UHGV virus genome: UHGV-0367640
Source of the DNA: a virus
Length of the DNA: 26,496 nucleotides
Reading direction: 5' to 3' (one strand)
This document shows positions 1-25,042 of this stretch, in pieces. The notes beneath the pieces are model-generated. The model did not search any database. It was given only the letters and a program-made list of their open reading frames with translations, and was not told the DNA's origin. Each line of letters starts with the position of its first letter. Position 1 is the first letter of the stretch. A program made the position numbers and the translations under genes.

Positions 1-803
1 CAGCAAACCCTCAGGAGTTTCAAATAGCTGTTCTTTTTACGGAAATACTTATGAACTGGCTGGAATAAAGTGCAAGAAAATGTGACTACCCTCTCATTTT
101 TATCTGACATGATCTGTTGCCACTCGCTGCCAAATTGTGGCGCTAAAGCTGATTAGCACGGTGATATTTGATACTCTGGCAGACAGCAGAAATAACGGAT
201 TTAACCTAATGATGAATGACGGTAAGCAACAATCTACCTTTTTGTTTCACGATTACGCACAACACCCCTGAGAACCGCCATGAACAAGGGTTTCATGATT
301 TGTGATTTTAGTTTGGTACGCAATTTGGTACACAACACAATTTTCACTTCAGCGGGTAGTCATCAAACTCACCATAACGCACTTCGTTGATGATGTACGT
401 GATCACCAAAAATATCGCATCCGGACTAGTTCCATCTTCATGCGCAGGCATATGTTCATGCCTACCTGTCTGCAAACCAGTAATAAGCCATTACAGGGTG
501 ATAGTGATGCATCAACTACGTTAAGCGCAGAGAAATGATGCAGTGGTGGGCGGATTGGCTTGATGAAAAGGTGGCATAGCGCCACCTACATCCCTGGGCA
601 ATCATCAAACTAACCTGCACGCGCATCGTTGATGATGCACCCATCCCATTTTTTTGATAGGATTAACACGAGAACAGAAAGAATTATATCTAATTGTTTT
701 TAAAGCGGAAATTTTCATACCATCTTTTCCATTACCGTTTTTATATAAATGTAATGAAGTATAGCTTTAAATGATTTAACATCAGGATATTATATAATCC
801 CTA

Positions 804-2003
804 ATGGTCGTGAGCGTTTTTATGTTTGACTTGACGTTTATTATCTTTATTTTATCTTCCATCCCTGTATTTTTTGTTTTTTGGATTGCCGGAAGGTTTA
901 AGAATGAATTAGTTGCAGACTCTTCTTTTGGATTGCGAGGTGATGACAATTTATCTTGCCTCAGGGGGTTGGCGGCTGTCATGGTCGCCCTTCACCATTC
1001 AGTATATATGTTCAATTATCTTTATCATGATAAATGGAGTATATTTTTGAATGATGGATTTGCGGCGAAGTCAAGCAACAATAGTTTATTGGCCATTGCA
1101 TATTTTGGCTCCATTCCAGTCATGATATTCTTTATGATTACAGGGTTTCTCTTCTTTAGAAAAATAATAAACAAACCAATAAACAATGCTGCAATATTTT
1201 TGTCGGCGCGAGTTAAGAGACTAATTCCAATGTATGCATTCATGGTGCTTTGCGTTGTTTGTGTTTCTGAATTAATTCGACCCAACGATAGCATTGGGAT
1301 TCACAACATTATTGTTGAAGTTGGCCGATATTTTACGTTTGGTATAATTGACCCTAATGGCCTTACACCTTCTATTCATGGATCTTTAATCGTTGGCGGG
1401 GTTATCTGGACTCTTGCATATGAGTGGGGTTTTTATATAATTTTACCATATATCTCTATGTTCGTAAAATCAATAAGAGATGCATGTTTTTCGGTAATAA
1501 TTATGCTTTTCTCGGTATTAATTGCTTACCGCCAAGAGCTTATCAGTGAAATGTTTGCCACTCTTCTCTTTTGCTTTATTGGTGGCTTTGTTGCAGCGCT
1601 AGCTTCTGGTTACCTAAAGAACAACGCTATCAAACAAGCCAATAGCGTAATGATGACAATTGTGTACCTTTTATCGCTTATTGCTGTCGCATACTGGCAG
1701 GACTTTAACATTTACAATGTTTACATAGTGATTCCGCTATTTTTGTTTTTTTTAAGTGCGTGTACTGGCTCCAAAGCTTTTCAAATTATAAACACCAAGT
1801 TCTTCAAGGTGGCGGGTTCTGTAAGTTACAGCATTTATTTGATGCATGGCTTAAGCATGGTAATGACCTTTAATTTCATTTCAAGCTCATTAAACTATAC
1901 TGAGTTTGCAGCAATATCTTTATCAATTTGTGCAATGATAAGTTGCTTAACTTACTTATACATTGAAAAACCCGCAATGAAAAAACAGTTTAAAAACAAT
2001 TAG
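804..2003 (+). CDS. Integral-membrane acyltransferase, acyltransferase-3 family (O-antigen/LPS O-acetyltransferase-like lysogenic conversion gene)
   Basis: 399-aa very hydrophobic multi-pass ORF with an N-proximal LRG-LAAVMVALHH motif typical of acyltransferase-3 enzymes; AT-rich by eye; convergent with the tail fiber assembly gene. Start uncertain: ATG 804 or ATG 822, no clear SD; a TATAAT at about 793-798 would favour a downstream start. Confidence 0.7.
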   Translation: MVVSVFMFDLTFIIFILSSIPVFFVFWIAGRFKNELVADSSFGLRGDDNLSCLRGLAAVMVALHHSVYMFNYLYHDKWSIFLNDGFAAKSSNNSLLAIAYFGSIPVMIFFMITGFLFFRKIINKPINNAAIFLSARVKRLIPMYAFMVLCVVCVSELIRPNDSIGIHNIIVEVGRYFTFGIIDPNGLTPSIHGSLIVGGVIWTLAYEWGFYIILPYISMFVKSIRDACFSVIIMLFSVLIAYRQELISEMFATLLFCFIGGFVAALASGYLKNNAIKQANSVMMTIVYLLSLIAVAYWQDFNIYNVYIVIPLFLFFLSACTGSKAFQIINTKFFKVAGSVSYSIYLMHGLSMVMTFNFISSSLNYTEFAAISLSICAMISCLTYLYIEKPAMKKQFKNN

Positions 2004-2046: not shown

Positions 2047-2478
2047 TTAAGCTGGCTTAATAGGCCATTCTATGTCGGGAGCCTTGGTAACATTAATAGC
2101 TTCCAATTCATCAAGATAATCCAGCCATGCACCATACTGATATTTTTCATCATTACGGAGCCGACCCATAGCCGCTTTTCCAGGCCATTGCTTGCTGTTC
2201 ATGTTAGAGTTGGCCTGTTCAATAAGAATCTGCCTCTTGCGTTCTGCTGCTGCTACCTGCTCATCATGAGTTAGTGCTGGTAGTTCACCCCATTCCGGAT
2301 AACCATCTTTTCCAGCGATGCGGACCTTCCCAGTTGGCGGTTCCTTTGTATATTCTGTAAATATATCTTCGTCACATTCAACACCATCAGTAGGCCAGCA
2401 ATTTCCAGAAATATAATCTTCTTTCATTGATGTTGGATAGAAAGCGTTATTTATTGCACTGTACACATATTTTTCCAT
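2047..2478 (-). CDS. Tail fiber assembly protein (Tfa/gpG-like chaperone)
   Basis: 143-aa ORF directly downstream of the tail fiber gene (3-nt spacing); size and sequence character typical of Tfa chaperones; ATG at 2478. Confidence 0.65.
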   Translation of the reverse strand: MEKYVYSAINNAFYPTSMKEDYISGNCWPTDGVECDEDIFTEYTKEPPTGKVRIAGKDGYPEWGELPALTHDEQVAAAERKRQILIEQANSNMNSKQWPGKAAMGRLRNDEKYQYGAWLDYLDELEAINVTKAPDIEWPIKPA

Positions 2479-2479
2479 T

Positions 2480-3175
2480 TTATTTACCTATAGCTATCCA
2501 TCGACAATAAGTTGTATTGCTACCTGATGGCTGGGAACCCATTAAGCTAAAACCAAGACCGGTACTAACGGGTGTAGCAGCAAAAGAAGGAATTGAATTT
2601 ACTGCAGATTCCGCATTATCATACGACACAACAATTTGCACGGTTGAGTAGTTGGTAAATGCAATGGGGAAATTTATAAAAGTGGGAGATCCAATCGCTC
2701 CTGCCACTGAAACACCACGTTGAAAGATAGTTCCATCAGGGTAACGACACCAGCCATTTCCACTTGTAAAGCTAGACATGTCAGGAATTTGATTGGTGCC
2801 GGTCCCTACATTTCTTTTAGCCGCTTCTCCCAAACCAAGGTTTTCGAGAGCCGTTGGTACCGTGCCGTCCGATTTGATATCACCAAACGGATTATTGCGG
2901 CTCAGGTATTCAACAGCAAACCCCGATCCCAGCAATTCAACAAAACCGGGCAGATCACCATTATCAAGCACATCCCGTTGCGTTTTATCACTTACAAACT
3001 GGGCCAGAGCTGCAGCAATAAAGCTGGCCTGCCGAATAACCTTATTGACTTGCGCACTGGATGCTTTCCCTGCTGTAAATCCGGATATAAGCGCAGGCAA
3101 CGCTTCCCATTCCTCCTGCGACATAACATTGGCATTTCGATCAGTTGCAAACGCTTTAAAGTCATTTTTCGCCAT
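2480..3175 (-). CDS. Tail fiber protein (short side fiber)
   Basis: ORF after the baseplate genes, N-terminus MAKNDFKAF... typical of enterobacterial phage fibers. Start chosen at ATG 3175 (ATGA overlap with upstream stop, GGGGAG about 10 nt upstream) rather than ATG 3193 of the ORF track. Confidence 0.6.
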
Positions 3176-3855
3176 CAGAGTAATACTCCCCATGCCCCTA
3201 CATCAAAACCACTGATGAATTCGTTATCCATATCAAAACCAAAAAATTTAGAGCCTTCCGATGGAGTTTCCACCGAAGGTGTTTCAATGCCCCCCGCCCA
3301 TACCCCGGCGGCTTTTACTGTTAGATACCCCTGTTTAATTGCCGCAATTAACTCACGCGATACATCTGAAATATCAGTATCAGGAAAGACCCAGACCGAT
3401 ATCGTCATGTCCTGGTTATCGACTATCTGCATTCGCAGCCCGGATCCTGCTGTTGCAGCGTCAAGAATTGCTGGAAGCGAATCATTCCGTCCGTCCCAGT
3501 TATTAATCGCAATCTTCGCTTTAAGGATGACACGATAAGTTTCATCGCTGAGGTACATGTATCCGGAATCAGGATCGTATGGCCCCTGCCATACACCCTG
3601 ATCATATCCAAGCCCGTCGGTATCCCAGCTGAAATAGACACCTGAGATAGGCTGGCTGACAACACGGCTACGTCCGATCCACAATCCCAGAATGTCAAGT
3701 TGCACACCAACCGCAGAGTCAATATCAAATGCAGTAATCAGCCCTCTGGTGGCCGCCGCAACATCAATAAGCGGCCGGGTCATCAGATCAACATGTGCAA
3801 GAAATTTAGGTTTGGTGGCGTGGTAGTTCGTGATTAGTTCGGTATATTTGCTCAT
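3175..3855 (-). CDS. Baseplate/tail protein (Mu gp48-like position)
   Basis: 226-aa ORF between the baseplate J-like gene and the tail fiber gene; ATGA overlap at both ends; product assigned by position and size. Confidence 0.5.
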
Positions 3856-6220: not shown

Positions 6221-6616
6221 TTAAACAGCTTCATCAGTCTTCATTTTTTCCCACTGAGAAAAAATAGTCTTAACCTCTAAGAGAGATTGCTGTGCCATTG
6301 CTTTATCTATTGCACAGCTAGTGAGGTCATAATCTGCTTCATTTCGAGCCAGTCTCTGTTGCTCAAGTTTGTAAGCCATGGATTTTAGGCTTAATGGATC
6401 ATATGGCTCCAGTTTGTTTTCACTCTTATTTTTAAGATAAGAGATAAGACTGGAATGATGATCCTTCGTATAAGCAGGAAGACTGGTCAGATTCTCTTTT
6501 ATTTCATGGTAAAGCGCATAATATGCCCGCGAAATAGTATTACGATAACCAACTTCAGAATCCTCCGCAAAGCAACGCTCCGCTGAAGATAAAAACTCAG
6601 AGCTAGTTATAGGCAT
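6221..6616 (-). CDS. Small HEPN-like protein (putative toxin/RNase-fold component of an accessory cassette)
   Basis: 131-aa ORF, ATG 6616 with AAAGGGTG RBS about 5 nt upstream; overlaps the upstream gene by 14 nt; N-terminal ...ISRAYYALYHEI... resembles the conserved helix of classical HEPN domains and fits Rx6H; AT-rich by eye. Fold assignment is by motif only. Confidence 0.45.
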   Translation of the reverse strand: MPITSSEFLSSAERCFAEDSEVGYRNTISRAYYALYHEIKENLTSLPAYTKDHHSSLISYLKNKSENKLEPYDPLSLKSMAYKLEQQRLARNEADYDLTSCAIDKAMAQQSLLEVKTIFSQWEKMKTDEAV

Positions 6617-7373
6617 ATTTACACCCTTTCAAGCTATTTCTTTCAACGGAAAAACGTGCAATAAGATTGCAATCATCAAGTAAATCGATTGAACAAATTT
6701 CATCTGCAAGTCGCATATTCATTGCAACCACCTGTTCAGGGGATGCATTAACTACCTCAACCAGATAAGTCCCACCAGATGCACCGTTGATGTCAGCACG
6801 ATATTCAGTTGGAGGGAATTCAGCCATGACTCTATGAACAGCAAGAGCAACTTGCATGTATTGTTCTGAAGAGCATCCTGACTTTTTGTATGCTTCATCC
6901 ATATCGTGAATTACCTCCTGCAAGAAGGCTTCTGCGTCATCCCTATGTTCTTCTTGGGATAACATTTTGCAATGACGTCCAAAATATTCTACGCATTTTG
7001 ATAGTTTCCCTACCAAATACGCAACGCCACCAGCCCTATAAGTAAACCACTTGGTTGGATACTTATCAGCTAAAGAATAGATGTAGTAGTCCGATTTTTC
7101 GAGTAGAGAAAAACGCTCAAGCAGCTTACAAAAAATCCGCGCAAAGTTAACATCAGCATGTGGGAGGATAGCTTCAAGCATTTCAATCCCGACACTCACA
7201 TCACCTTTAGCAATATGAGCCAAAGCTACAAGCGTGTCAGCAGGCGGAGTACGCTTAGAGCCATACTCCGAGACCACCTCTCGAAAGGTCCAAATATCAA
7301 GAGGTTGACCACTATTGATTATCTTAACCAACTGGTCAAAACGCTCTTCCGCTTTCAGTTTTGGTCTTGCCAC
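6603..7373 (-). CDS. Hypothetical protein, first gene of the accessory two-gene operon
   Basis: 256-aa ORF, apparent GTG start at 7373 about 23 nt downstream of a predicted sigma70 promoter; no motif recognised; AT-rich. Confidence 0.55.
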   Translation of the reverse strand: MARPKLKAEERFDQLVKIINSGQPLDIWTFREVVSEYGSKRTPPADTLVALAHIAKGDVSVGIEMLEAILPHADVNFARIFCKLLERFSLLEKSDYYIYSLADKYPTKWFTYRAGGVAYLVGKLSKCVEYFGRHCKMLSQEEHRDDAEAFLQEVIHDMDEAYKKSGCSSEQYMQVALAVHRVMAEFPPTEYRADINGASGGTYLVEVVNASPEQVVAMNMRLADEICSIDLLDDCNLIARFSVERNSLKGCKYAYN

Positions 7374-7402
7374 AGTACGCTCGCTACTTATCTTTTGGTT
7401 GA

Positions 7403-7432
7403 ATTTTATGTTCGCGTATACAGTTTAGTCAA
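7403..7432 (-). promoter_or_regulatory. Sigma70-like promoter for the two-gene cassette
   Basis: On the minus strand TTGACT (7432..7427), 18-bp spacer, TAAAAT (7408..7403), about 30 nt upstream of GTG 7373, in the only sizeable intergenic gap of the tail module. Confidence 0.45.
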
Positions 7433-7464
7433 TCCGAAGCTCGTGCTGTTGAGCCGTTTCGCAC

Positions 7465-7488
7465 AAAATCATCCTTGCAAAAAGGATG
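7465..7488 (-). terminator. Weak hairpin plus T-run after the secreted-protein gene
   Basis: Minus strand CATCCTT-tttgc-AAGGATG followed by ATTTTG, immediately after the stop at 7494. Confidence 0.3.
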
Positions 7489-7493
7489 GGACT

Positions 7494-7835
7494 TCAACCA
7501 TCAACCTTTTTACACGGGAAAGATCCGATGATTTTCGGTGCATCCATGCTGTTCTGCAGAAGCTGGACGTTCAGGAAACGCGTTTCGGTGCCAGGGCGAC
7601 GAATGTATTCAAAGCCATAATTGTTGCCATCTTTAGCAGGCATAAGCCCCATATCAATCTTAATGCCATCAGCACCAAGATTTGTAATTTTCTGCGATGT
7701 GACGCGTTCACCGTTAATCATGTCCATTTCACCCAACCTTGCAGTGATGGTGTAAGGCCCACAATAAGCGGTGTACCCGCTTGCTGATGCCCCAAATGAC
7801 ATAAAGGCAACAATTAAAATGGCTAAGGCTTTCAA
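7494..7835 (-). CDS. Small secreted (signal-peptide) protein of unknown function
   Basis: 113 aa; N-terminus MKALAILIVAFMSFGASA|SGYT is a type-I signal peptide; two Cys in the mature part; TTG start at 7835 with GGGGG about 5 nt upstream, no in-frame ATG before an upstream stop; 2 nt after the hub gene stop. Confidence 0.5.
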   Translation of the reverse strand: MKALAILIVAFMSFGASASGYTAYCGPYTITARLGEMDMINGERVTSQKITNLGADGIKIDMGLMPAKDGNNYGFEYIRRPGTETRFLNVQLLQNSMDAPKIIGSFPCKKVDG

Positions 7836-9204: not shown

Positions 9205-9791
9205 TAGCCGCCTCCCAGTAATGACGCCACGTTACCCGTAATGCTTTTCAGCAGTGAAGTATCTGGAGGCTTTGTGGTTTTGTTGCCGCTGTTCTGTACC
9301 GCCGACGTGCTGGCCCCTTCCTTCATGTTGGTTTTATCCGCGACGGTAATCTGCTGTGTCCGGGAGATAATGACCTCCCTCAGGGTGAGGACGGCGGACA
9401 GGACGTTTTCGGTTGTCTTGTCCGTCGTCACTTCCAGCGCCCGGATCAACATGTTGCTGTACAGCCGTTTACCGGTTACCACATCGAAGGGGATACGGCT
9501 TTCCTGCAGATCCAGTAGCTCCTGATACGTCTGCTGAGGACTCAGGCCGAGCAGGCTGGTAGCCGTCAGATTACTGGCAAAATCCAGCAATGCGCCGCCA
9601 CCGGCGAAACCAACCTCCATCACCACTTCTGACGGTTTTTTATAGGCATGATCAGCGACAGCGGCCCCGACCTCTACCGGATGCTCTGTTATTTCAAGCA
9701 TATCTGTATGCTTCTCTGAAATAACAACACTGGGAACAATCATTCCTATTTTTCTGCTCTGCTGATGAAAAAGTGTAGAGAGAATATCCAC
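9204..9791 (-). CDS. Tail protein downstream of tape measure
   Basis: 195-aa ORF with GTG start overlapping the tape measure TAG stop by 1 nt. Confidence 0.45.
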   Translation of the reverse strand: MDILSTLFHQQSRKIGMIVPSVVISEKHTDMLEITEHPVEVGAAVADHAYKKPSEVVMEVGFAGGGALLDFASNLTATSLLGLSPQQTYQELLDLQESRIPFDVVTGKRLYSNMLIRALEVTTDKTTENVLSAVLTLREVIISRTQQITVADKTNMKEGASTSAVQNSGNKTTKPPDTSLLKSITGNVASLLGGG

Positions 9792-11779
9792 TAACCCACC
9801 CTCACCTGATTACTTCGCATGACCTGAGCATTTGCAGACTGTTGCCGACGTGCAACCTCATTACCGACAGCGTGCGGATCTCCGCCACCGTAAATGTGGT
9901 AAGTATTTTGCTGGTTAACCTCTGTCATTTTGCCACTAATTCCCGCCACGGCAGCCTTATTAATCAGCTCTCGAGAATAGATATTTCTTCCATTTTCATG
10001 CTGGATAATGCTGCTCATCAATGCTGACATGGTTTGCGGATCGCTCATATTCAGGGCAGCCCGGGGATCCACTCCCAGTCGTTGCGATACAGCCCTGATA
10101 TACGCAGTTGTGTTGTTATTATCAGACGCAGGTGCCCAGGTAGAGATAATTTTCTCCACACTGTTTATTCCCCGTCCGGCGTACAGCATTAACTGACGAG
10201 CAAGAGCCCGTAATCCATCAAAAGCAGTTTCAAATCTGGCAAATCGCCCGCCCGGGCGTTCAAGAGAAGCCCCTGCCTGACCAGCAAAATTAAGGTTTCC
10301 CGGATTGTTATTCCGTTCTCCTCGTTTCGTAGCCTGTGCATATTGTTCCTGCTCATCATCACCAAACCAGCCGCGTACCGTCCGGCCCACACTGCGGGGA
10401 TCGAATCCCCAGTGCTCTTTAATCCAGTCGGCAGTACTGTTAGCGCTGTCTGTAACCATCGGCATCGCTGACGGATTTTCGCTGCCCTGATTAAGTATCT
10501 GTTTGCCGATGCTGACGGCATCAGCCCAGCGGCCATCTTTGATAGCGTTGAGCAGGTCGGCGATCATGTTCAGCATTTTGCTGAATTCGCCCATCTGGTC
10601 GATGAAGTTGCTGAAATCCCACTTCAGGGACCATGATTTGGGGTCAATATTGAGCAGTTTCGCCAGCGCTTTCACCAGTTCATTAACAGACCCTTTCAGG
10701 TCACGAACCATCTTCAGCGCGGCATCGACCTCCGGCTTCCACTTGCCCCAGTCAATCAGGCTGTCGCCGCCTTCCTTCCAGGTCTGATAGTCCTCCCACA
10801 GAAGGGCAATCCCCGCCGCCAGCGCGGTAATGAGGCCAATCGGCGACATCCAGAACGTACTGTTCAGAATGCGCAGCGCAATCGTCAGCGCGCCAAACAG
10901 CGAGATGAGCTCCCGCGTTTGCTTATCCAGCGATTGCCACCAGGTGATAAGGCTGGATGTTCCCTCAATTAGCCTGAAGAACAGCCGCCCGATGATGTCT
11001 CCGAGCGCCAGAATGCCTTTTATGGCTTTCGTCAGGGTCTGCTCGATGCGCGGGAAGTTATCGAGGATGTGGCGGCGCAGTGTGTCCAGCGAACCCGCCA
11101 GACCACCAGCAAGATTAGAGCCGATTTTGTCACGGGCCATGCCTGCCATCGCGCCGAACTCGCGCAGGGAGGTCATGAATTTGTTGGAGCTTCTGGCCGC
11201 CTCGTCAGCATTGAAGCCGATAGCTTTCGCCATTGCGCTGTACTGCCCGGAGAAATCACCCACACCCCGGCGCATCGCCATGAGGGTATTTTCGTCAATG
11301 CCCAGCATCTGCGCATACTGGTTAGCCCGGTAATACGGCATGCTGCTGAGCTTCTGTCCGACACCCGTAAAAATAGCGGCCATGTCGCGCATGTTGCCGC
11401 TGGCGTCACGGGTCTGTACGCCCAGGCGATTCAGAAAGCCTTCTGCACCGGGATTGTTACGAATAAACCGGGAGAGGCTTTCCAGAGAAGATCGCGCAGC
11501 GTCCACGCTGCCGCCAACCTGCGAAACCGCATAGCCAATAGACTGAATCCCCTGAACCGTCGCGCCGGTGCGCTGTGACGCCCAGTAGAGATTATCCAGA
11601 CCGGAGGCGATCTTGGCCGTGAAGGCCACCACGGACAGCGCAGCTCCTTCAACAGCCAGCCCCATTTTGATGACATTTGCAGTTGTACCGGCGAGGACAG
11701 AACCGAATTTTTTCGCGCCTGCATCATCCACACTGAAGCCAAGCGAGACAAGGAAATCTTTAATAGTTTCAGCGTTCAT
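9791..11779 (-). CDS. Tail tape measure protein
   Basis: Long Ala/Gly-rich ORF with membrane-like central segment, directly after the tail chaperone; start refined to ATG 11779 (GGAGAGAGG 3 nt upstream) rather than 11800. Confidence 0.8.
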   Translation of the reverse strand: MNAETIKDFLVSLGFSVDDAGAKKFGSVLAGTTANVIKMGLAVEGAALSVVAFTAKIASGLDNLYWASQRTGATVQGIQSIGYAVSQVGGSVDAARSSLESLSRFIRNNPGAEGFLNRLGVQTRDASGNMRDMAAIFTGVGQKLSSMPYYRANQYAQMLGIDENTLMAMRRGVGDFSGQYSAMAKAIGFNADEAARSSNKFMTSLREFGAMAGMARDKIGSNLAGGLAGSLDTLRRHILDNFPRIEQTLTKAIKGILALGDIIGRLFFRLIEGTSSLITWWQSLDKQTRELISLFGALTIALRILNSTFWMSPIGLITALAAGIALLWEDYQTWKEGGDSLIDWGKWKPEVDAALKMVRDLKGSVNELVKALAKLLNIDPKSWSLKWDFSNFIDQMGEFSKMLNMIADLLNAIKDGRWADAVSIGKQILNQGSENPSAMPMVTDSANSTADWIKEHWGFDPRSVGRTVRGWFGDDEQEQYAQATKRGERNNNPGNLNFAGQAGASLERPGGRFARFETAFDGLRALARQLMLYAGRGINSVEKIISTWAPASDNNNTTAYIRAVSQRLGVDPRAALNMSDPQTMSALMSSIIQHENGRNIYSRELINKAAVAGISGKMTEVNQQNTYHIYGGGDPHAVGNEVARRQQSANAQVMRSNQVRVG

Positions 11780-14940: not shown

Positions 14941-15481
14941 CTTTATCCCTCACAACATGGGTAATAGCTCTGCGATATTGCCCGGTATCAATTAATGGTT
15001 TCGCCAGTTCGGTTCCCGGAGATTCGCCAGCAGCACGCCGGGCAAGTTCCAGTGTTGCCCCCTTGCGCCCCCGACGAGCCCTGGCTTCAACAGTACTGTC
15101 AGCAAGCGGCGTAAAGCCGGTAATGGTCATGTAACGCCTGACGCCATTAGCGGCCAGCGTTCCGGCACGGTTGAGTGCGCTTTCTGCTCCCGCAGCATTA
15201 CCATCAAGTGCAGCCTGCGCCGCGACTTTGAGCTGCGGCACCGTCTGCTCTTCTGCCGATTTAACGCCGGGAACCAGGTGAGGTCGTGGCGGGATGTTCT
15301 GCTCTGGTGAGCCGTATTCGTTGAGGTAACCGATGCCCGCATTACCAAACGGAACATCATCCCGCCCGCTGTCTTCCGAAGGGATGCCGACCAGCACATC
15401 TTTTTTGGTTAACGACCTGAGCGCATCCAGAATGGCCTTAGCGTTATCCACCCTCGTTGTTACACCGCTTTTGAAACTCAT
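14927..15481 (-). CDS. Phage head-tail adaptor / head completion protein (hypothetical)
   Basis: 184-aa ORF, ATGA overlap with upstream gene. Confidence 0.5.
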
Positions 15482-15885
15482 AGCTGGCGACCACCTGCAC
15501 CGAACATCGTGATCAACTGATAAAATTCAGCGCCATATCGGGTGTTATTCCAGAAACCTGCATCAGGATTCAGCGTCGCGCTGGTGTCATAACTGACGCT
15601 TACCTTATCCACGGACTTTGAGGACTGAACACCATTGGTTGAACCGCCCGGACCACCAGCCAGCATCGCCCGGCTGTCTGCCGCCCAGAGCGTCATGTAG
15701 TGCGCAACGAACAACCCGGCAAAGTACGGAAACAACTTTTTGCCGGTGACGTTTTCGCTCAGCAGTTCATCGGCCAGATTCAGACGAAACTGGATTTGCG
15801 CTTCGGGATATTTGGCAGGGTCAGCAAACTGCGGGAAGTCGCGGCGAAAATCACTTACCGCTGGCAGACTTTGATTCTTTGGCAT
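15478..15885 (-). CDS. Phage head-tail connector protein (hypothetical)
   Basis: 135-aa ORF, ATG 15885 with GAGGT 5 nt upstream. Confidence 0.5.
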
Positions 15886-16072
15886 TTTTTACCTCGTTAC
15901 GCGCGTCTGTGGCTTTGCCAACGGATACTTCCGCGTGCGCACGAGTGAACCAGTGCGTGGCAACGTCTTCCTCCACAGCATGACGGCCTTTAACAAACTC
16001 GCGCCGAGAACCGTCGGGAAGCGTGAGCACAAACGGGGTATGTGCGTGTATTACTGCATCATTTTTTGCCAT
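15851..16072 (-). CDS. Small phage protein, Lys-rich C-terminus
   Basis: 73-aa ORF, ATG 16072 with AAGGATGA RBS; overlaps the next gene by 35 nt. Confidence 0.45.
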
Positions 16073-16113: not shown

Positions 16114-16431
16114 TTAAATGCCATCAACGTACGAAATGGTTTCTTTGTACACTGGCTCGACTGCACCCAGCTTGCCGTAGTAAGTGACGATCTGATACAG
16201 ACCGCGATACTGCACCGGCACGCTCTGAAGCGGAACCAGCGGGTAGCGGACGTATTTTTTATCGTTGGTGTACGCAACCATGCGATCCTTTTTCCCCACA
16301 CCACGGCCTTTCAGCCATTTAACCGCGCGGATATTCAGCGGAACACCGTTCTGGTGATAGCTGATGGTGTTGGTCTGAAGATACGTCAACAGGGACTGGT
16401 TACCCGCAGATGAAACGATGATGCTGGACAA
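16114..16431 (-). CDS. Major capsid protein, C-terminal segment (downstream of an in-frame TAG)
   Basis: Same reading frame as 16441..17055, separated only by TAG 16443..16441 and three codons; no ATG and no SD in front of it. Confidence 0.5.
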   Translation of the reverse strand: MSSIIVSSAGNQSLLTYLQTNTISYHQNGVPLNIRAVKWLKGRGVGKKDRMVAYTNDKKYVRYPLVPLQSVPVQYRGLYQIVTYYGKLGAVEPVYKETISYVDGI

Positions 16432-16440
16432 CAGAGCAAA

Positions 16441-17055
16441 CTACTCAGGCGGGATCAGCAAATCACGCGGAACCACAGAGTAACCGGAAGCGGCCCACGC
16501 ATCAGACAGCGCCTGGTTAATGCTTGCGCGGATTTCGTCCGGTGTTGAGGTTGCCCACGTTTTGGCAGCGTTGTTGACAGGCACGCCGTCCAGGGTAACA
16601 AGGCCTTTCAGGTTTAATGCGGAATCGCCAACATATACCTGTTCATCGTTATCCATCTGCCATTTCAGTTGCATACCGTCATACTTCTGCGTATCAATCG
16701 GGCGGCCGACCTGCTGAGCAGCCTGCAATTCTATGACCGTCCAGCCAAGTTCCATCCCCCACAGGTTCAGCGGGTTACCGGATTTGCCGATATCCACGTT
16801 CACGCCAGCAATAGCGGTTGAGTCTTTGCCTACCCAGTTTTTGCCATTCGGATTTGCACCAGTACCCGCAGCGGCGAAGCTGGTATTCGTCCAGCTGGAA
16901 ATGTCATCTGCGATGGAGACATCTTCACGCAGTTGGATATCGCGGGTCCAGGTGTACCCCACCAGTGGCAGGTTCAGTGTCTGGTCGAGTCGTTCCAGCT
17001 CCCCGATGAGAAAGGCACCAGAGCTGTCAACGGTTGCCTGATCAAAAGTAATCAT
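16441..17055 (-). CDS. Major capsid protein, N-terminal segment (ends at an in-frame TAG)
   Basis: 204-aa ORF at the major capsid position, ATG 17055; too short alone for an HK97-fold capsid protein, and continues in frame into 16114..16431. Confidence 0.55.
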   Translation of the reverse strand: MITFDQATVDSSGAFLIGELERLDQTLNLPLVGYTWTRDIQLREDVSIADDISSWTNTSFAAAGTGANPNGKNWVGKDSTAIAGVNVDIGKSGNPLNLWGMELGWTVIELQAAQQVGRPIDTQKYDGMQLKWQMDNDEQVYVGDSALNLKGLVTLDGVPVNNAAKTWATSTPDEIRASINQALSDAWAASGYSVVPRDLLIPPE

Positions 17056-17066
17056 TCGTCTGTTCC

Positions 17067-17573
17067 TTAAATCTTCCAGGAAATTTCTGCATTGCCGTTA
17101 GCATCACCGGCACCTGTGAATTCAGCGTTGGTCAGCACCACGTTTTTGCCACTGACTGACGTGGCCATGAATCCACCCAGCGGCACTTTGATGGATTCAT
17201 CAGTGGAGACGACAACGTATACCGGGTCGCCTTTTTTGATGGTGCTGGCATCAAAATCAGAACCGAGATTAACGGTCACGTAGCCACGCTTCATGGCGTC
17301 GCCCGGGAAGTTCTTGCCACTCCCCACCTGGCGAACCATGTCCGGCTGCGAAGTGGTCGGATAAGGGCGCACGTAGATCCCCTTCACCTTGTCTGCGGTA
17401 TCACCATCTGCCAGCGGCACGAAAAAACCGTCATCATCGTATTTACCAGCCAGCCCATAGGCAGCGAAGGCGTTATCGGATTTAAGGACCACCGGTTCGA
17501 CGGTTAAGTCCTGCGGGCGAGAGACAGCCCCGGCAATGCCAACAGGCATCCGGTACAGAAATACATTATTCAT
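17067..17573 (-). CDS. Capsid-associated structural protein (decoration-like, hypothetical)
   Basis: 168-aa Gly/Asp-rich ORF between scaffold-like and capsid genes; ATG 17573 with AAAGGGT RBS. Confidence 0.5.
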   Translation of the reverse strand: MNNVFLYRMPVGIAGAVSRPQDLTVEPVVLKSDNAFAAYGLAGKYDDDGFFVPLADGDTADKVKGIYVRPYPTTSQPDMVRQVGSGKNFPGDAMKRGYVTVNLGSDFDASTIKKGDPVYVVVSTDESIKVPLGGFMATSVSGKNVVLTNAEFTGAGDANGNAEISWKI

Positions 17574-17576
17574 TTT

Positions 17577-18797
17577 TTACCCTTTACGGTTTGCCCAGAA
17601 TTCGGCGTTTTGTTTGTTCAGGGAAGCGATACTGGTCATGCCCATGTTTGGGCGCTGTGCATCGCCGGTGGTGGCGCGGGTGTTTCGCCCTTTGGCAATC
17701 TCAGACACGGCATTAAACGCCATGTCGACCGATTGTTTCGGTAATTTGCGGATATCCGCATCGCCGACTATCTGGCGAACCAGCGTTTTGTCAGCAGAAG
17801 CCAGAACCTCGCGTTTGAACGCGGTCGGTTTCATCTTACGGCTCAGATCGATACCCGGAACGATAACTTCGGCACGCCAGGCTGAGTCACCAGTAATCGT
17901 GGTTTCCTCTTCATCGTCCTCGCCGTCACCGGTCGGATTATCGTCAGGCTTATTGTCGTTATCGCCCGTCGCATTTCCTTCCAGCTTAGCCAGCAGGGCT
18001 TTCAGTAATGTTTTGAGGTCATCATCACTGTCGCCGGTTGGACCTCCGCCCATCTCTGGTGCTTTGTCCGGTAGCGGTTGCTGCGGGGACAGGTTGATGT
18101 TGAGATTAACGCCCTGCGGCAAATCCCCCTCATCTCCTGTAACCGATGCGGGAGCCGACTCCACCAGTTCGTTCATGGTGTCAGCGTCACCCGTTTTGAT
18201 GGCCGTGCGCATGCGGGTCCACCAGCTTTTCTTTTGATTTGCCATTGTGTCTCTGTCTCCAATTGCACAACGATTTCCGGCTCTGCCTTTAGGGACAAGA
18301 GCCACATGGTTTCCGGTAATATCGACCTGCTCGGCTTTACCTGGCTCGGTCTGCTCATACTCCGCGTCATAGCCGCACGACACTTCGCGCAGGCCATCTT
18401 CGATAAGCTGAATGGCGCTTTCGTCTTTGACGATAAGGTCAGCCAGCATCAAATCAGACAGCTCACCCGTCCCGCGCCGGACATTCTGGAGGTGCCCGAC
18501 AGCAAGCTCTTTCCAGTTCTCGGGATTTACCAGCCGCACATTCCCGTTTTCATCTTCAGGATGCAGAATCGTGATGCTCATCCCTTCGAATGAGGCAAGC
18601 GTGGCCGGATGGAATACCTGCTCAGGAGAACGCGTGACGACTATTTCACCGAACTTATCGGGTTTCAGTTTTGGCAGGTCATCAGCACCATAGAGCTGCT
18701 TACCTGTTCGTCCTATCGGCACGTCTTTGCACAGCAACGAGCCGTCAGCCAGCTGATAGCGGGTTTCCCCCAGCCGGGTATTGAAAAAATATTTCAT
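17577..18797 (-). CDS. Putative scaffolding protein
   Basis: 406-aa ORF with long acidic low-complexity segment (GDSDDD...DDEEETT), between MuF-like and capsid genes; ATG 18797 with AGGT RBS. Confidence 0.55.
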   Translation of the reverse strand: MKYFFNTRLGETRYQLADGSLLCKDVPIGRTGKQLYGADDLPKLKPDKFGEIVVTRSPEQVFHPATLASFEGMSITILHPEDENGNVRLVNPENWKELAVGHLQNVRRGTGELSDLMLADLIVKDESAIQLIEDGLREVSCGYDAEYEQTEPGKAEQVDITGNHVALVPKGRAGNRCAIGDRDTMANQKKSWWTRMRTAIKTGDADTMNELVESAPASVTGDEGDLPQGVNLNINLSPQQPLPDKAPEMGGGPTGDSDDDLKTLLKALLAKLEGNATGDNDNKPDDNPTGDGEDDEEETTITGDSAWRAEVIVPGIDLSRKMKPTAFKREVLASADKTLVRQIVGDADIRKLPKQSVDMAFNAVSEIAKGRNTRATTGDAQRPNMGMTSIASLNKQNAEFWANRKG

Positions 18798-18811: not shown

Positions 18812-19585
18812 TCAGGCGGGATAAGAATGGGAGGTGGGAAAAACGATTTCTTTATAACAGCGACAATTCGGGAGCTCGCCAGCGTGACCGGTCATGCCAT
18901 CAAGCGTTGGAGGTTTGCCCCATTCGACAAATTTACCTTCCATTTCCCGATGAGAATGCCTGACGTCACCATCTTCGGCTGTACGCCAGATATAACCATT
19001 CGAACCAATTGACAGCGCACGCGCCTGATCCAGCGCGCCGGTTGCACGTCCAAGTTCAGTACGGGCAATCAGGTCAACTCTGGACTTTGCTATATCACCC
19101 GATGCGGCTATTTCTTTAGCAAAATGTTCTGCTCTCCCGCCGGTCACAACAGCTTCTGTCGCCCGATTCTGGATGTCGTACACCCTGTCAGCCGCCTCGA
19201 GGGGGAGCGATTTGATGTACTTGACCTGTTCGGCGATGATGGATTGCATCACCTGGCCCACAGGAGCGCTTTCCACAAGATTGCGGAGCTCGCGACTGAT
19301 GTTCTTGCTGTGTTGCCGCCAAACTTTCTCGTTCTGCCGGGTTAGGTCCGCAGTAAAGTTTTCCGCGACCTTTGTCGCCCAGGGGGTGATGATTTTACTG
19401 TAGCGTTCCAGCGCCTCAATAATTTCCGTGATACTGTCATTTGAACCATCGTAGTGACCATTGACGATGTCTCCGACCGCCCGCGCTATCCTGCGTAGGC
19501 TGGTTCGATAGCGGATTTCCGCCTGACGGTTCCTGCGGTTCGTCATCAGGTTCGCCGATGCCGGGCGGCGCTTCATCTTCGGCAT
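18812..19585 (-). CDS. Head morphogenesis protein, MuF / SPP1 gp7-like
   Basis: 257-aa ORF directly after the portal gene; start uncertain because ATG 19585 (or 19549) overlaps the portal 3' end by more than 100 nt. Confidence 0.6.
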   Translation of the reverse strand: MPKMKRRPASANLMTNRRNRQAEIRYRTSLRRIARAVGDIVNGHYDGSNDSITEIIEALERYSKIITPWATKVAENFTADLTRQNEKVWRQHSKNISRELRNLVESAPVGQVMQSIIAEQVKYIKSLPLEAADRVYDIQNRATEAVVTGGRAEHFAKEIAASGDIAKSRVDLIARTELGRATGALDQARALSIGSNGYIWRTAEDGDVRHSHREMEGKFVEWGKPPTLDGMTGHAGELPNCRCYKEIVFPTSHSYPA

Positions 19586-20903
19586 TCTCGATGTCCTCGT
19601 CGGTAATGGATGCCCCGATGCCGGTTACGTCAGAATTTTCGCGCAAATCAGTCATAGCGGCTTTCAGTGTCATCAGACCATCACCCAGCGCCGTACTGAT
19701 TGCGTTGGTGGTGTTTAACGCCACCGTTGAGCGATCGACATCAGACATTTGCCAGAGCGGGTTAAACTCAAACGTGAAATCATCCGGGAGCGGCTTGCCA
19801 AGTTCCGAACGATGCATGATGTCCAGTATCCGACGCACCGGAAGACGTAAACGCCTCTCCTGCAACGAACTGATGCGGTCGTAATAGTTGGCAAGGTCTG
19901 CATCACCGGTAGAAAATCCTTTCGGGGACTGTCCGAACAACCGCACCAGTGGGATACCAACAGCGCCACTAATCTGTTCTGCAAACTGTGATAGGATGTC
20001 ATCCAGACCACTGAAGCTGTACTGATGCGTTTCAAACTTATCCCGCGAGTCCATGAGCGTCATGCCTTCATTGCTCTGGAACTGTCGAATCAGGTCGATA
20101 TTCTTCAGCAACGCTTCATACGCAGGACCACCAAGTGCGATAAGCTCGCGTAGCTTCTCCACGCTGTAGGTACGCAAATGCGCTTTGTAGACCAGCTGCG
20201 CCGCGCCGACAGTAGCGCTGTCGAACGCGGTAAGACGATCCCAGATACGCTCTACAACCGACATTCCCCATTCGTTCTCGGTCATCTTCTGCTGAAATGG
20301 CAGCGTGACGCCATCAAAGCGAATCAGTCGACTGTGATGAATGCGCCAGGCAGGAATTCCCGTTGCTGTGGTCACCACATCGTAAAACTCAGGTTTACCC
20401 AGGTCCGGCCCCATATCTTTAATGCGGCGGGTCAGTACCGGGTCAATCATCCAGCGGTCGAGCGGGAGAATCCCCTTAAACTTGCCCTTACCGATGGTTT
20501 CGGGTCGCAGCGGGGTCATTGGTGCCTGCCCCTCAATCATGATGAAACCCACCGCGCCGCCGTAGAGGCGCGACCATTTCAGCACGTCATTCAGCGCATC
20601 CCAGATTTGCAACTCATCCAGTTGTGATTCGAGAATGCCACGATCTTTTGCATCAATTTCCGAAGTGATGCGAATGCCTTTGCGGGTCATATCATCCGGG
20701 ATAGCATCGACTGCTTCGCCGATGATCCAGGATGAACGATAGGACCATTCCACCAGCATGCGGTTACGACTGGTGAAATTAGCCCGGTAGGTGGATGCTG
20801 AGTGCTGGTTAGGTGTCTGCATCCCTACGCGGGCAATAAAATTCTCATAACCATCAGCTGTGGCCTGCGCAGTTCGCCGCAGGGCTCGTTTGTTTCGTGC
20901 CAT
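19437..20903 (-). CDS. Portal protein
   Basis: 488-aa ORF after the large terminase (ATGA overlap at 20903), acidic C-terminal tail. Confidence 0.75.
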   Translation of the reverse strand: MARNKRALRRTAQATADGYENFIARVGMQTPNQHSASTYRANFTSRNRMLVEWSYRSSWIIGEAVDAIPDDMTRKGIRITSEIDAKDRGILESQLDELQIWDALNDVLKWSRLYGGAVGFIMIEGQAPMTPLRPETIGKGKFKGILPLDRWMIDPVLTRRIKDMGPDLGKPEFYDVVTTATGIPAWRIHHSRLIRFDGVTLPFQQKMTENEWGMSVVERIWDRLTAFDSATVGAAQLVYKAHLRTYSVEKLRELIALGGPAYEALLKNIDLIRQFQSNEGMTLMDSRDKFETHQYSFSGLDDILSQFAEQISGAVGIPLVRLFGQSPKGFSTGDADLANYYDRISSLQERRLRLPVRRILDIMHRSELGKPLPDDFTFEFNPLWQMSDVDRSTVALNTTNAISTALGDGLMTLKAAMTDLRENSDVTGIGASITDEDIENAEDEAPPGIGEPDDEPQEPSGGNPLSNQPTQDSAGGRRHRQWSLRWFK

Positions 20904-23106: not shown

Positions 23107-23631
23107 ATGAATCCTGAAATTTTTGAATCAAAGTTCATAATGAACGAAGCAACTTGGCAACGAATTGAAAGGTTAGTAAATACTGAAGATGATATTGGTT
23201 TGGTTTTAAGAGTACATCTGATTACAGAAGCAATGATTGAGGCATTTTGTTGCGCCGCTGTAGGTAACCAAAATCTATTTGATGGATTTGGTGAAAACTT
23301 AACCATGACCTATGCCGCAAAAATTCAGCTAGCTGCCAACCTCGGCCTAAATGAACACTCCGTCGCAGAACTTAAACGCCTAAATAGAATAAGAAATGTT
23401 CGCTCTCATCAAATAGACAACCCGGAAATAACTGACGCAGAAATTGAATCATTACGAACATTTATTAGCCGAGGTGGTCAGGAAGATCTCATTAACTCAG
23501 CAAGATTCGGCATAAAAGTTGGAGACATTGAGCTGAATCTTAACCGTCCAGATGCCAATAATCGTGAAAAATTCATAGCTATTCTTGGCAGCATCATCCT
23601 AAGGCTCACTAAACAAGTTGCAGGACAATAG
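23107..23631 (+). CDS. Hypothetical accessory protein with HEPN-type Rx4H motif (candidate abortive-infection/defense gene)
   Basis: 174-aa plus-strand ORF, ATG 23107 with AAGG about 9 nt upstream, divergent from the small terminase start 27 nt away; motif LKRLNRIRNVRSHQ contains RNxxxH. Confidence 0.55.
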   Translation: MNPEIFESKFIMNEATWQRIERLVNTEDDIGLVLRVHLITEAMIEAFCCAAVGNQNLFDGFGENLTMTYAAKIQLAANLGLNEHSVAELKRLNRIRNVRSHQIDNPEITDAEIESLRTFISRGGQEDLINSARFGIKVGDIELNLNRPDANNREKFIAILGSIILRLTKQVAGQ

Positions 23632-24212: not shown

Positions 24213-24701
24213 TTAATAGCCATCAGAAGTAATCGCTACAGATTTCAATCCCTCAATGTCATCCTTGGACAGGGCGAACCATTCACCGTGCTTTCTCTTT
24301 GCGGCAAATTTGCGATGAAGCATGTTTTCAGTTTCTCTTCCACCAGGGATCAGGCACTCAAGCTTCAAGCAGTCTGGTCCAGAGTTGCCAAGCGATTTGA
24401 TGCGTTGTGGAATGTTGGATGAATACCCAATTTTGGTTAGCCCAGTTTTCTTCGATGACAAAACGTATACCTGAGGAGGTTCTTTTCTCTGGTCTTCCAT
24501 TACACGTCTCATTGTTGCCATAAGTCCGCCGTGCATCAGCATTTCAACAAAGAACGCTGACCGAACACCTGACGACTTAAGCATGCCAGAAAATTCACTT
24601 GCCAATTCCATTAACTCTGCGATGTTTTCAGGAACTTTTTGGCAGTTATCTTCCTTGTATAAGGAAATCATTCTTTGAAGCTTTTCTTCTAATTGGTTCA
24701 T
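24213..24701 (-). CDS. T5orf172-domain protein (GIY-YIG-like superfamily)
   Basis: C-terminal half VYVLSSKKTGLTKIGYSSNIPQRIKSL...HGEWFAL matches the T5orf172 signature; start placed at internal ATG 24701 (AAAGG RBS about 10 nt upstream) rather than 24857 of the ORF track. Confidence 0.6.
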   Translation of the reverse strand: MNQLEEKLQRMISLYKEDNCQKVPENIAELMELASEFSGMLKSSGVRSAFFVEMLMHGGLMATMRRVMEDQRKEPPQVYVLSSKKTGLTKIGYSSNIPQRIKSLGNSGPDCLKLECLIPGGRETENMLHRKFAAKRKHGEWFALSKDDIEGLKSVAITSDGY

Positions 24702-25042
24702 AGCGTCTTTACCTTTTAGAAAGTGAGCCTGTCTCACAGAAAAGCCGCCCGAGAGAGGTTGCCACCTATAACGGCATTTCTCAGGCTCACTTACTGAAAG
24801 GCTCTCGTTAATATGCGCGTGAGATGCGCGGTTTACTGCAGATGTAAAAAGCCCCACAAATGCGAGGCTAAATCCTGGTATTTGTAATGACTGGCTCTTA
24901 TCTCAACGCGGCCCCTTACCGCGCGCCAGATGCTCAATCTCAAGCATCAGCAATGAGATGTTTAATCTGGATTCACTCCAGAAGTGATCACCACCCTGTC
25001 TACAGAGCCAGATGTGAAGGATGATGAGTAAAATTATCGCTA

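What the first reader, a model, noticed from the sequence alone, without database searches (positions are those of the whole stretch)
16114..17055. Major capsid gene interrupted by a single in-frame amber codon
Seen in sequence: ORFs 16441..17055 and 16114..16431 are in the same frame, separated only by TAG (16443..16441) plus three sense codons (...LIPPE * FAL LSSIIV...). The downstream part has no ATG and no Shine-Dalgarno, and together they give about 313 codons, a normal size for an HK97-fold capsid protein, whereas 204 aa alone is too short. Inference: a recent nonsense mutation making the prophage capsid-defective, or a sequencing error, or dependence on amber suppression/readthrough. 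Neighbouring head and tail genes look intact, so the lesion would be recent.
Basis: partly seen in the sequence, partly recalled or inferred. Interest (0 to 1): 0.6.

Follow-up and report, generated by a model that had tools for sequence, protein, structure and literature searches.

The report
Amber-broken capsid gene in E. coli prophage
The major capsid gene of an otherwise intact-looking E. coli prophage carries one real C-to-T change that turns glutamine codon 205 into a stop, an ordinary first step of prophage decay rather than a new kind of biology.

Summary
On the minus strand, 16114..17055 is one 313-codon major capsid gene (Pfam PF09950/DUF2184, HK97 fold) interrupted by a single TAG at 16443..16441. 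The two pieces match adjoining halves of the Pfam profile. Intact homologues have CAG (Gln205) there. The window differs from the nearest intact E. coli allele by exactly this one base in 942 nt. None of 306 complete E. coli genomes carrying this stretch has the same 101-mer. Across 29 species-level homologues, 28 have one continuous ORF and none has a stop here. It is not a one-off sequencing error: the same 204-aa product and TAG occur on 17 public contigs from at least four or five sequencing runs, one on a slightly different haplotype. All other late genes compared, small terminase through the conserved baseplate genes, are full length. TAG ends three other genes, the window has no tRNA, and the surrounding RNA shows no unusual structure, so recoding or programmed readthrough is unsupported. 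Most likely this is a recent nonsense mutation that leaves a SEN34-like lambdoid myovirus prophage, integrated beside dacD, unable to build heads. It would need an amber suppressor host to do so. Low interest.

The parts
16114..17055 (-). Major capsid protein gene (PF09950/DUF2184 family, HK97 fold), 313 codons plus TAA, disrupted at codon 205. It is a pseudogene by nonsense mutation.
   Evidence: It is 312/312 sense codons identical to WP_000627479.1. It aligns to Pam3 gp7 capsid 8HDT_A across the stop, residues 72-312, E=3.6e-19.
16441..16443 (-). In-frame amber codon TAG (Gln205 to stop). This is a C-to-T transition on the coding strand, which is G-to-A at + strand position 16443.
   Evidence: One search shows CAG in E. 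coli QML220601, E. coli RM8082 and phage vB_EcoM-606R2. One search shows it is the only difference from QML220601 in 942 nt. One search shows the same TAG in loci L004-L008.
16441..17055 (-). Expected translation product: a 204-aa N-terminal capsid fragment that lacks the C-terminal third of the fold.
   Evidence: Pfam profile positions 4-141 of 251. This exact product occurs on 17 public contigs.
16114..16440 (-). Untranslated remainder of the capsid gene (codons 206-313 plus TAA). There is no ATG and no convincing ribosome-binding site.
   Evidence: Pfam profile positions 147-251. The only candidate start is a TTG 9 nt after the stop, with just a GAG 12 nt upstream (read).
17067..17573 (-). 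Intact capsid cement/decoration protein gene immediately upstream.
   Evidence: PF23982 and PF22758. Full-length match at 99.4% with no stop.
17577..18797 (-). Intact DUF2213 (PF09979) head-module gene.
   Evidence: 100% identical to WP_000873165.1.
15851..16072 (-). Intact STY1053-family small gene immediately downstream.

Best explanation
The feature is a genuine, evolutionarily recent nonsense mutation, CAG to TAG at Gln205, in the single major capsid gene of a SEN34-like lambdoid myovirus prophage integrated next to dacD in an Escherichia coli chromosome. In an ordinary non-suppressing host, late transcription would yield a 204-aa N-terminal fragment lacking the C-terminal third of the HK97-fold protein. 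No shell can then be assembled. The lysogen can probably still express lysis, terminase, portal and tail genes but cannot make infectious particles. The allele is carried clonally by a gut E. coli lineage seen in several sequencing runs. Shown here: the base change, its uniqueness among homologues, its reality across assemblies, and the intactness of the neighbouring genes. Inferred: loss of capsid function and of virion production.
For: The TAG sits in frame between two halves of one Pfam domain. Intact 313-aa orthologues carry CAG at the site, including four deposited E. coli phage genomes named vB_EcoM. The window differs from the QML220601 gene by this single nucleotide in 942 nt, and the protein is otherwise 312/312 identical. 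None of 306 complete E. coli genomes with this stretch has the same 101-mer. Among 29 homologous loci from other species, 28 have one continuous ORF of 302-319 aa, with Gln at the position in 24 of 28 and no stop there. The exact 204-aa product and the TAG occur on 17 contigs. These come from an ENA metagenome scaffold that is 100% identical to the window over 19.9 kb, and from Logan runs SRR4408037, ERR2909981, SRR30949679 and SRR35966472. The protein aligns across the stop to the solved HK97-fold capsid protein Pam3 gp7 (8HDT; PMC9942802). All other late genes compared from TerS to the DUF2612 baseplate gene are full length. Relatives form real myovirus particles (SEN34, PMC5261728).
Against: No read-level data, host genome or experiment is available. 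The allele occurs on two slightly different flanking haplotypes: ERR2909981 has 6 SNPs within 4.2 kb. It has therefore persisted or moved by recombination for some time, which leaves room for tolerance or suppression. Natural amber-suppressor coliforms have been reported (my recollection of Marshall & Levy, Nature 1980, not checked here). Loss of function is inferred from the fold and from conservation, not measured.
Confidence: 0.85

Rival explanations
1. Sequencing or assembly error: the true base is C (CAG) and the gene is intact.
For: It is a single-base difference from the common allele. The allele is absent from 306 complete E. coli genomes and from three collection scans.
Against: The same TAG is present in five shown loci from at least four unrelated run accessions, and on 17 contigs overall. 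One of these has a different flanking haplotype, and one carries only long-read-type single-base deletions. An identical random error in independent data sets is implausible.
Confidence: 0.02
2. Suppression-dependent or leaky gene: the full-length capsid protein is still made. This could be by a host or prophage amber suppressor tRNA. It could also be by near-cognate tRNA-Gln readthrough, which would restore the wild-type Gln.
For: The lost codon is Gln, so supE-type suppression or near-cognate readthrough would regenerate the wild-type protein exactly (established knowledge of amber suppression). The allele persists across samples and on two haplotypes. The rest of the late region shows no decay.
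Against: There is no tRNA gene in the window. A close relative's prophage tRNAs are Asn and Thr, not suppressors. TAG is the normal terminator of three other genes in the window, including the tape-measure gene with the same following T. The following base is T, which as far as I recall favours termination in E. coli. Local RNA structure is not unusual, z=+0.53. A capsid needs hundreds of copies: T=7 for Pam3 and 535 copies for E217. Basal readthrough of well below a few percent (general knowledge) would not suffice.
Confidence: 0.08
3. Natural two-gene arrangement: the capsid protein is made as two separate polypeptides that assemble.
For: Gene callers report two adjacent ORFs, both with PF09950 hits.
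Against: The downstream piece has no ATG and no credible ribosome-binding site. No homologue in E. coli or 28 other taxa is split at this point. The arrangement differs from the intact gene by one base.
Confidence: 0.01
4. Selected inactivation (domestication): loss of the capsid is advantageous. For example, induction would release headless contractile tails with bacteriocin-like activity. Alternatively the truncated fragment could interfere with related superinfecting phages.
For: Tail, baseplate and lysis genes are all intact while the only lesion is in the capsid gene. The allele recurs in several samples.
Against: All other head, portal and terminase genes are still intact, unlike established tailocin loci. 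A single lesion one base away from the wild type is what neutral decay also predicts. Recurrence can be plain clonal descent. No functional data exist.
Confidence: 0.04

Closest known systems
Major capsid protein family PF09950 (DUF2184). Solved example: cyanophage Pam3 gp7 (PDB 8HDT). Nearest intact orthologue: E. coli WP_000627479.1.
   Same: Both halves score far above the Pfam threshold and cover profile positions 4-251. The sequence aligns to Pam3 gp7 residues 67-309. It has the same gene neighbourhood as relatives: DUF2213, cement protein, capsid, STY1053, DUF4054. It is identical to WP_000627479.1 at all 312 sense codons.
   Different: It carries a stop at codon 205, so the expected product is a 204-aa fragment.
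SEN34-like lambdoid myovirus prophages (Salmonella phage SEN34; Escherichia phages vB_EcoM-606R2, -689R2, -611R5, -683R1; a prophage of E. coli E2348/69).
   Same: The capsid region is 98.3% nt identical to the E. coli phages and 79% to SEN34. The late-gene order matches, and close relatives have a lambda-type early region. SEN34 has lambda-like genetics with myovirus morphology (PMC5261728).
   Different: Those relatives have an intact capsid gene. This copy also has its own mosaic patches, at 6221..7835 and in the tail-fibre end, and an acyltransferase moron.
Classical amber (conditional-lethal) capsid mutants of laboratory phages, such as T4 gene 23 and lambda E amber mutants.
   Same: The molecular lesion is the same: a sense codon changed to UAG in the major head gene. 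It is expected to give tails without heads in a non-suppressing host and rescue in a supE-type host (established phage genetics).
   Different: This allele arose naturally in a prophage of gut E. coli. It was not selected in a suppressor strain. No phenotype has been measured.
TAG-to-Gln stop-codon recoding in some gut phages (crAss-like and Lak phages; from my own knowledge, not checked here).
   Same: An in-frame TAG stands where Gln is expected in a late structural gene.
   Different: There is only one such TAG in 26.5 kb. TAG terminates three other genes. No suppressor tRNA is in the window. It is not a member of this class.

Membership tests
PF09950/DUF2184 HK97-fold major capsid protein | Sequence matches the family profile above the curated threshold | tested here: met
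   152.9 and 119.7 bits against a cut-off of 26.8. The two pieces cover profile positions 4-141 and 147-251.
PF09950/DUF2184 HK97-fold major capsid protein | One continuous ORF of about 300-320 codons encodes the whole domain | tested here: not met
   The window has TAG at codon 205. Of 29 homologous loci, 28 are continuous, as are the annotated E. coli and phage copies. The sequence belongs to the family, but as a disrupted copy.
PF09950/DUF2184 HK97-fold major capsid protein | Homology to an experimentally solved HK97-fold capsid protein | tested here: met
   8HDT_A, E=3.6e-19, residues 72-312. (PMC9942802): gp7 is a canonical HK97-fold capsid protein.
Pseudogene by nonsense mutation | In-frame stop at a position that is a sense codon in intact orthologues, with homology continuing after it | tested here: met
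Pseudogene by nonsense mutation | The base call is real and not an artefact | tested here: met
   Independent assemblies carry the TAG. Read-level support was not testable.
Pseudogene by nonsense mutation | No mechanism restores translation (suppressor tRNA, recoding signal) | tested here: inconclusive
   None was found in the window. The host genome and the prophage early region are not available.
Stop-codon (TAG) reassignment in phages | Many in-frame TAGs across late genes and avoidance of TAG as a terminator | tested here: not met
   There is one in-frame TAG only. Three genes end in TAG.
Stop-codon (TAG) reassignment in phages | Phage-encoded suppressor tRNA | tested here: not met
   No tRNA in the window. 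A close relative carries tRNA-Asn and tRNA-Thr only. The early region of this prophage was not seen.
Programmed translational readthrough | The stop codon is conserved among homologues | tested here: not met
   no homologue has a stop at this position.
Programmed translational readthrough | A stimulatory RNA structure or context downstream of the stop | tested here: not met
   minimum free energy -25.4 kcal/mol against a shuffle mean of -27.2, z=+0.53.
Phage-tail-like bacteriocin (tailocin) locus | Tail and lysis genes are retained while head, portal and terminase genes are absent | tested here: not met
   TerS, TerL, portal, MuF-like, DUF2213 and cement genes are all present and intact.

The most novel reading that the evidence does not exclude
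The amber allele is not mere decay but is maintained in a circulating gut E. coli lineage. One route is conditional expression: the lineage or prophage carries an amber suppressor, or Gln-inserting readthrough gives a low-burst, leaky phage. The other is a benefit of head-less induction, with tailocin-like contractile tails plus lysis. That would make it a snapshot of the very first step of prophage-to-tailocin domestication.
Probability: 0.05. Interest if true: 0.5.

Novelty: already known. Interest (0 to 1): 0.12.

Why it matters
The main value is for annotation. The two adjacent 'DUF2184' ORFs that gene callers report on these contigs should be merged and flagged as one pseudogene, and the prophage should be scored as probably non-inducible to infectious particles. 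It is also a clean natural example of a prophage caught one base away from intactness, present in several human-associated or other samples. It could serve as a lineage marker or as a simple test case: revert TAG to CAG, or plate on supE hosts. It does not open a new question.

Tried and rejected
(1) I looked for the TAG allele elsewhere with an exact 45-nt pattern in genome contigs, viral contigs and JGI metagenome contigs. All three gave 0 hits. Complete E. coli genomes gave 0 of 306. Only the exact-protein look-up found it.

(2) I tried to recover the source contig and host flank through neighbouring proteins. The baseplate wedge protein is far too common. The acyltransferase look-up did not return the 33-kb scaffold. 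The host junction was instead identified by BLAST of window 1-520, which lies downstream of dacD.

(3) A suppressor tRNA search of the window found none.

(4) An RNA fold around the stop, as a readthrough signal, was not different from shuffles.

(5) A literature search for the run and sample accessions returned nothing. A search for the vB_EcoM phage names found no paper.

(7) I considered stop-codon recoding, a split two-gene capsid and a tailocin reading. I rejected or down-weighted each for the reasons given in the membership tests.

Full report
OBSERVATION. Reading the minus strand gives ...GAT TTG CTG ATC CCG CCT GAG TAG TTT GCT CTG TTG TCC AGC.... The TAG occupies window 16443..16441. 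The mechanical ORF list has a 204-codon ORF with an ATG start at 16441..17055. It also has, in the same frame, a 105-codon ORF at 16114..16431 whose 'start' is only the first TTG after the stop. Together with the stop and three sense codons, these span 942 nt, or 313 codons plus TAA. Pfam PF09950 (Major_capside, formerly DUF2184) matches the upstream piece at profile positions 4-141 and the downstream piece at positions 147-251 of 251. Both matches are far above threshold.

WHAT THE INTACT GENE LOOKS LIKE. The 1.2-kb region matches 339 complete E. coli genomes and four deposited Escherichia phage genomes (vB_EcoM-606R2, -689R2, -611R5, -683R1, all 98.3%). It also matches Salmonella phage SEN34 at 79%. 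In E. coli QML220601, E. coli RM8082 and phage 606R2, the corresponding annotation is one 942-nt CDS of 313 aa, WP_000627479.1, 'DUF2184 domain-containing protein'. It is flanked by DUF2213 and a 'structural cement protein Gp24' upstream, and by an STY1053-family gene and DUF4054 downstream.

A DNA alignment shows CAG (Gln) in all three records where the window has TAG. Across the whole 942-nt gene, the window differs from QML220601 at that single base and nowhere else. The translated window is identical to WP_000627479.1 at all 312 sense codons. That intact protein sequence is on record from 272 contigs.

IS THE STOP SHARED BY HOMOLOGUES? The 101-nt segment centred on the TAG matches 306 complete E. 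coli genomes. The best matches are 99.0%, which is one mismatch, so none has the window's sequence.

A scan of one genome per species found 29 homologous loci at 53-98% aa identity. They come from Shigella, Shimwellia, Rahnella, Pantoea, Erwinia, Xenorhabdus, Morganella, Hafnia and even a Beijerinckia and a Nitrospiraceae MAG. In 28 of them the gene is one continuous ORF of 302-319 codons. The aligned residue is Gln in 24 of 28, Ala in 3 and Leu in 1. None has a stop there. The only broken copy, in an Arsenophonus insect endosymbiont, is broken elsewhere. It is not fulfilled.

IS IT A SEQUENCING ERROR? Exact-pattern scans of the species genome set, IMG/VR and the JGI metagenomes found no second copy of the TAG allele. 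An exact-protein look-up, however, found the 204-aa product on 17 contigs:
- A 33.5-kb ENA metagenome scaffold (ERZ28648668, VATT16-1_SAMN05827115). It is 100% identical to the window over 19,920 bases. Twelve further near-identical places were not shown.
- Logan assemblies of SRR4408037 and SRR35966472, both 100% identical.
- SRR30949679, which differs only by single-base deletions, as expected of long-read error.
- ERR2909981, which has 6 substitutions in 4.2 kb.

All of these carry ...GAG TAG TTT.... In ERR2909981 the substitutions fall in two clusters, at 17970-18075 and 15150-15179. Three of them equal the allele found in phage 606R2. The amber allele therefore sits on at least two slightly different flanking haplotypes. 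It is a real allele circulating in nature and not a one-off artefact. The database lists the 204-aa sequence only from Logan and ENA and under no NCBI protein accession. Judging by its name, the ENA sample appears to come from an infant-gut metagenome study, but I could not verify this (one search found no paper).

CONTEXT. Window 1..~520 is E. coli core chromosome immediately downstream of dacD. It is followed by:
- an 18-codon remnant of an integrase gene (523..576);
- an intact Acyl_transf_3 gene (804..2003);
- on the minus strand, a complete late operon: tail-fibre and assembly genes, baseplate, tape measure, chaperone, tube, sheath, neck, the capsid gene, cement protein, DUF2213, MuF-like protein, portal, TerL and TerS;
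- a T5orf172-domain gene;
- a lysis cassette with a lambda-family holin.

Every annotated protein of the QML220601 prophage from TerS down to the DUF2612 baseplate protein aligns over its length, or all but three residues, with no stop. Only the capsid protein shows one. Two hypothetical proteins in the variable patch 6221..7835 are only 30-54% identical. The tail-fibre proteins are divergent and align only in part.

The family is the SEN34-type 'lambdoid myovirus' group. QML220601 has lambda-like N, cI/cro-region, O/P, nin and Q genes upstream of the same late genes. SEN34 was isolated as contractile-tailed particles (PMC5261728). The structural proteins belong to the E217/Pam3/XM1 set of Pfam families.

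The capsid protein aligns over residues 72-312, straight across the stop, to the solved capsid protein gp7 of cyanophage Pam3 (8HDT_A, E=3.6e-19). That protein is a canonical HK97 fold in a T=7 shell (PMC9942802). In the more distant E217, the shell uses 535 copies (PMC10329688).

MECHANISM. The coding-strand change C to T converts Gln205 to amber. In a host without a suppressor, the ribosome terminates after residue 204. The downstream 108 codons have no ATG. Their only candidate start is a TTG 9 nt after the stop, with nothing better than a GAG 12 nt upstream, so reinitiation is unlikely.

The missing third corresponds to Pfam profile positions 147-251 and to Pam3 gp7 residues ~201-309. It is conserved throughout the family. 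By general knowledge of the HK97 fold, this part contributes strands of both the P and A domains. I therefore infer a non-assembling fragment and a head-defective prophage. This step is inference and was not measured.

ALTERNATIVES TESTED. Genome-wide TAG reassignment is excluded. There is exactly one in-frame TAG among the late genes. TAG is also the terminator of three other genes, at 804..2003, 6603..7373 and the tape-measure gene 9791..11779. The last has the same following T.

Programmed readthrough is unsupported. The stop is not conserved, and the surrounding 121 nt fold no better than shuffled sequence (z=+0.53).

A suppressor tRNA is not encoded in the window. A close relative carries only tRNA-Asn and tRNA-Thr between Q and holin. 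The corresponding part of this prophage and the host genome are outside the window, so host suppression cannot be ruled out. If it occurred with a supE-type tRNA, it would restore the wild-type Gln. Basal near-cognate readthrough would also give the wild-type protein, but at levels far too low for a protein needed in hundreds of copies per particle (general knowledge).

A 'domestication' reading has nothing against it in the sequence. Tails and lysis are retained, the head is lost, and a tailocin-like particle would result. It also has nothing specifically for it, because all other head and packaging genes are still intact and a single neutral hit explains the data.

COMPARISON AND NOVELTY. 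The gene is a disrupted member of the PF09950 capsid family. The element is a member of the SEN34-like lambdoid myovirus prophages. The lesion is of the same kind as classical amber head mutants, but it arose naturally. Point-mutation decay of prophages is textbook. This specific allele does not appear in NCBI protein records, but that does not make it a new kind of thing.

VERDICT. Sequencing error is essentially excluded. Suppression or readthrough is unsupported but not excludable. Interest is low (0.12). The practical value is correct pseudogene annotation and a tidy natural test case.

Noticed in passing
window 1..520: This stretch is E. coli core chromosome, the intergenic DNA immediately downstream of dacD. 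The window therefore contains the prophage/host junction. 5416 of 5426 complete genomes match part of it.
   Followed up: partly
window 523..576 (+): Only the last 18 codons (KRREMMQWWADWLDEKVA) of a 385-aa tyrosine integrase (Phage_integrase family) are present. The full integrase gene sits at this spot in other loci (L046-L048). It is an integrase remnant next to the tail-fibre end.
   Followed up: partly
window 804..2003 (+): An intact 399-aa Acyl_transf_3 (PF01757) gene on the opposite strand, between the junction and the tail-fibre assembly gene. It is possibly a surface-polysaccharide-modifying lysogenic-conversion gene. An acyltransferase-family gene at the corresponding spot in strain Res13-Lact-PEB17-18 is annotated as a pseudogene with an internal stop.
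   Followed up: partly
window 24213..24857 (-): A T5orf172/MUG113-domain gene sits between the lysis cassette and the small terminase gene. Next to it, on the + strand, is an unannotated 174-aa ORF (23107..23631). Neither is found in the QML220601 relative.
   Followed up: no
window 6221..7835 (-): A mosaic patch. The ORFs here are only 30-54% aa identical to those of the QML220601 prophage, while flanking baseplate genes are 96-99% identical. They have no Pfam hits.
   Followed up: no
window 2047..3193 (-): The tail-fibre end has one gp53-like fibre gene plus one assembly gene. It lacks the pinE invertase and the second, inverted fibre set present in QML220601.
   Followed up: no
L006 (Logan ERR2909981), equivalent to window 17970..18075 and 15150..15179: The same amber allele lies on a slightly different haplotype, with six substitutions in two clusters. 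Three of the four upstream ones equal the allele of phage vB_EcoM-606R2. This suggests recombination after the mutation arose, or a chimeric assembly of two related prophages.
   Followed up: partly
L036 (Arsenophonus endosymbiont of Aleurodicus floccissimus) 1001..1940: This homologous capsid gene is interrupted at about codon 143. It is an independent pseudogene in an endosymbiont genome.
   Followed up: no
window 18812..19585 and 19437..20903 (-): The longest ORF for the MuF-like head morphogenesis protein overlaps the 3' end of the portal gene by about 150 nt. RefSeq annotates a 244-aa version that overlaps by about 110 nt, and a metagenome gene caller chose a 149-aa version.
   Followed up: no
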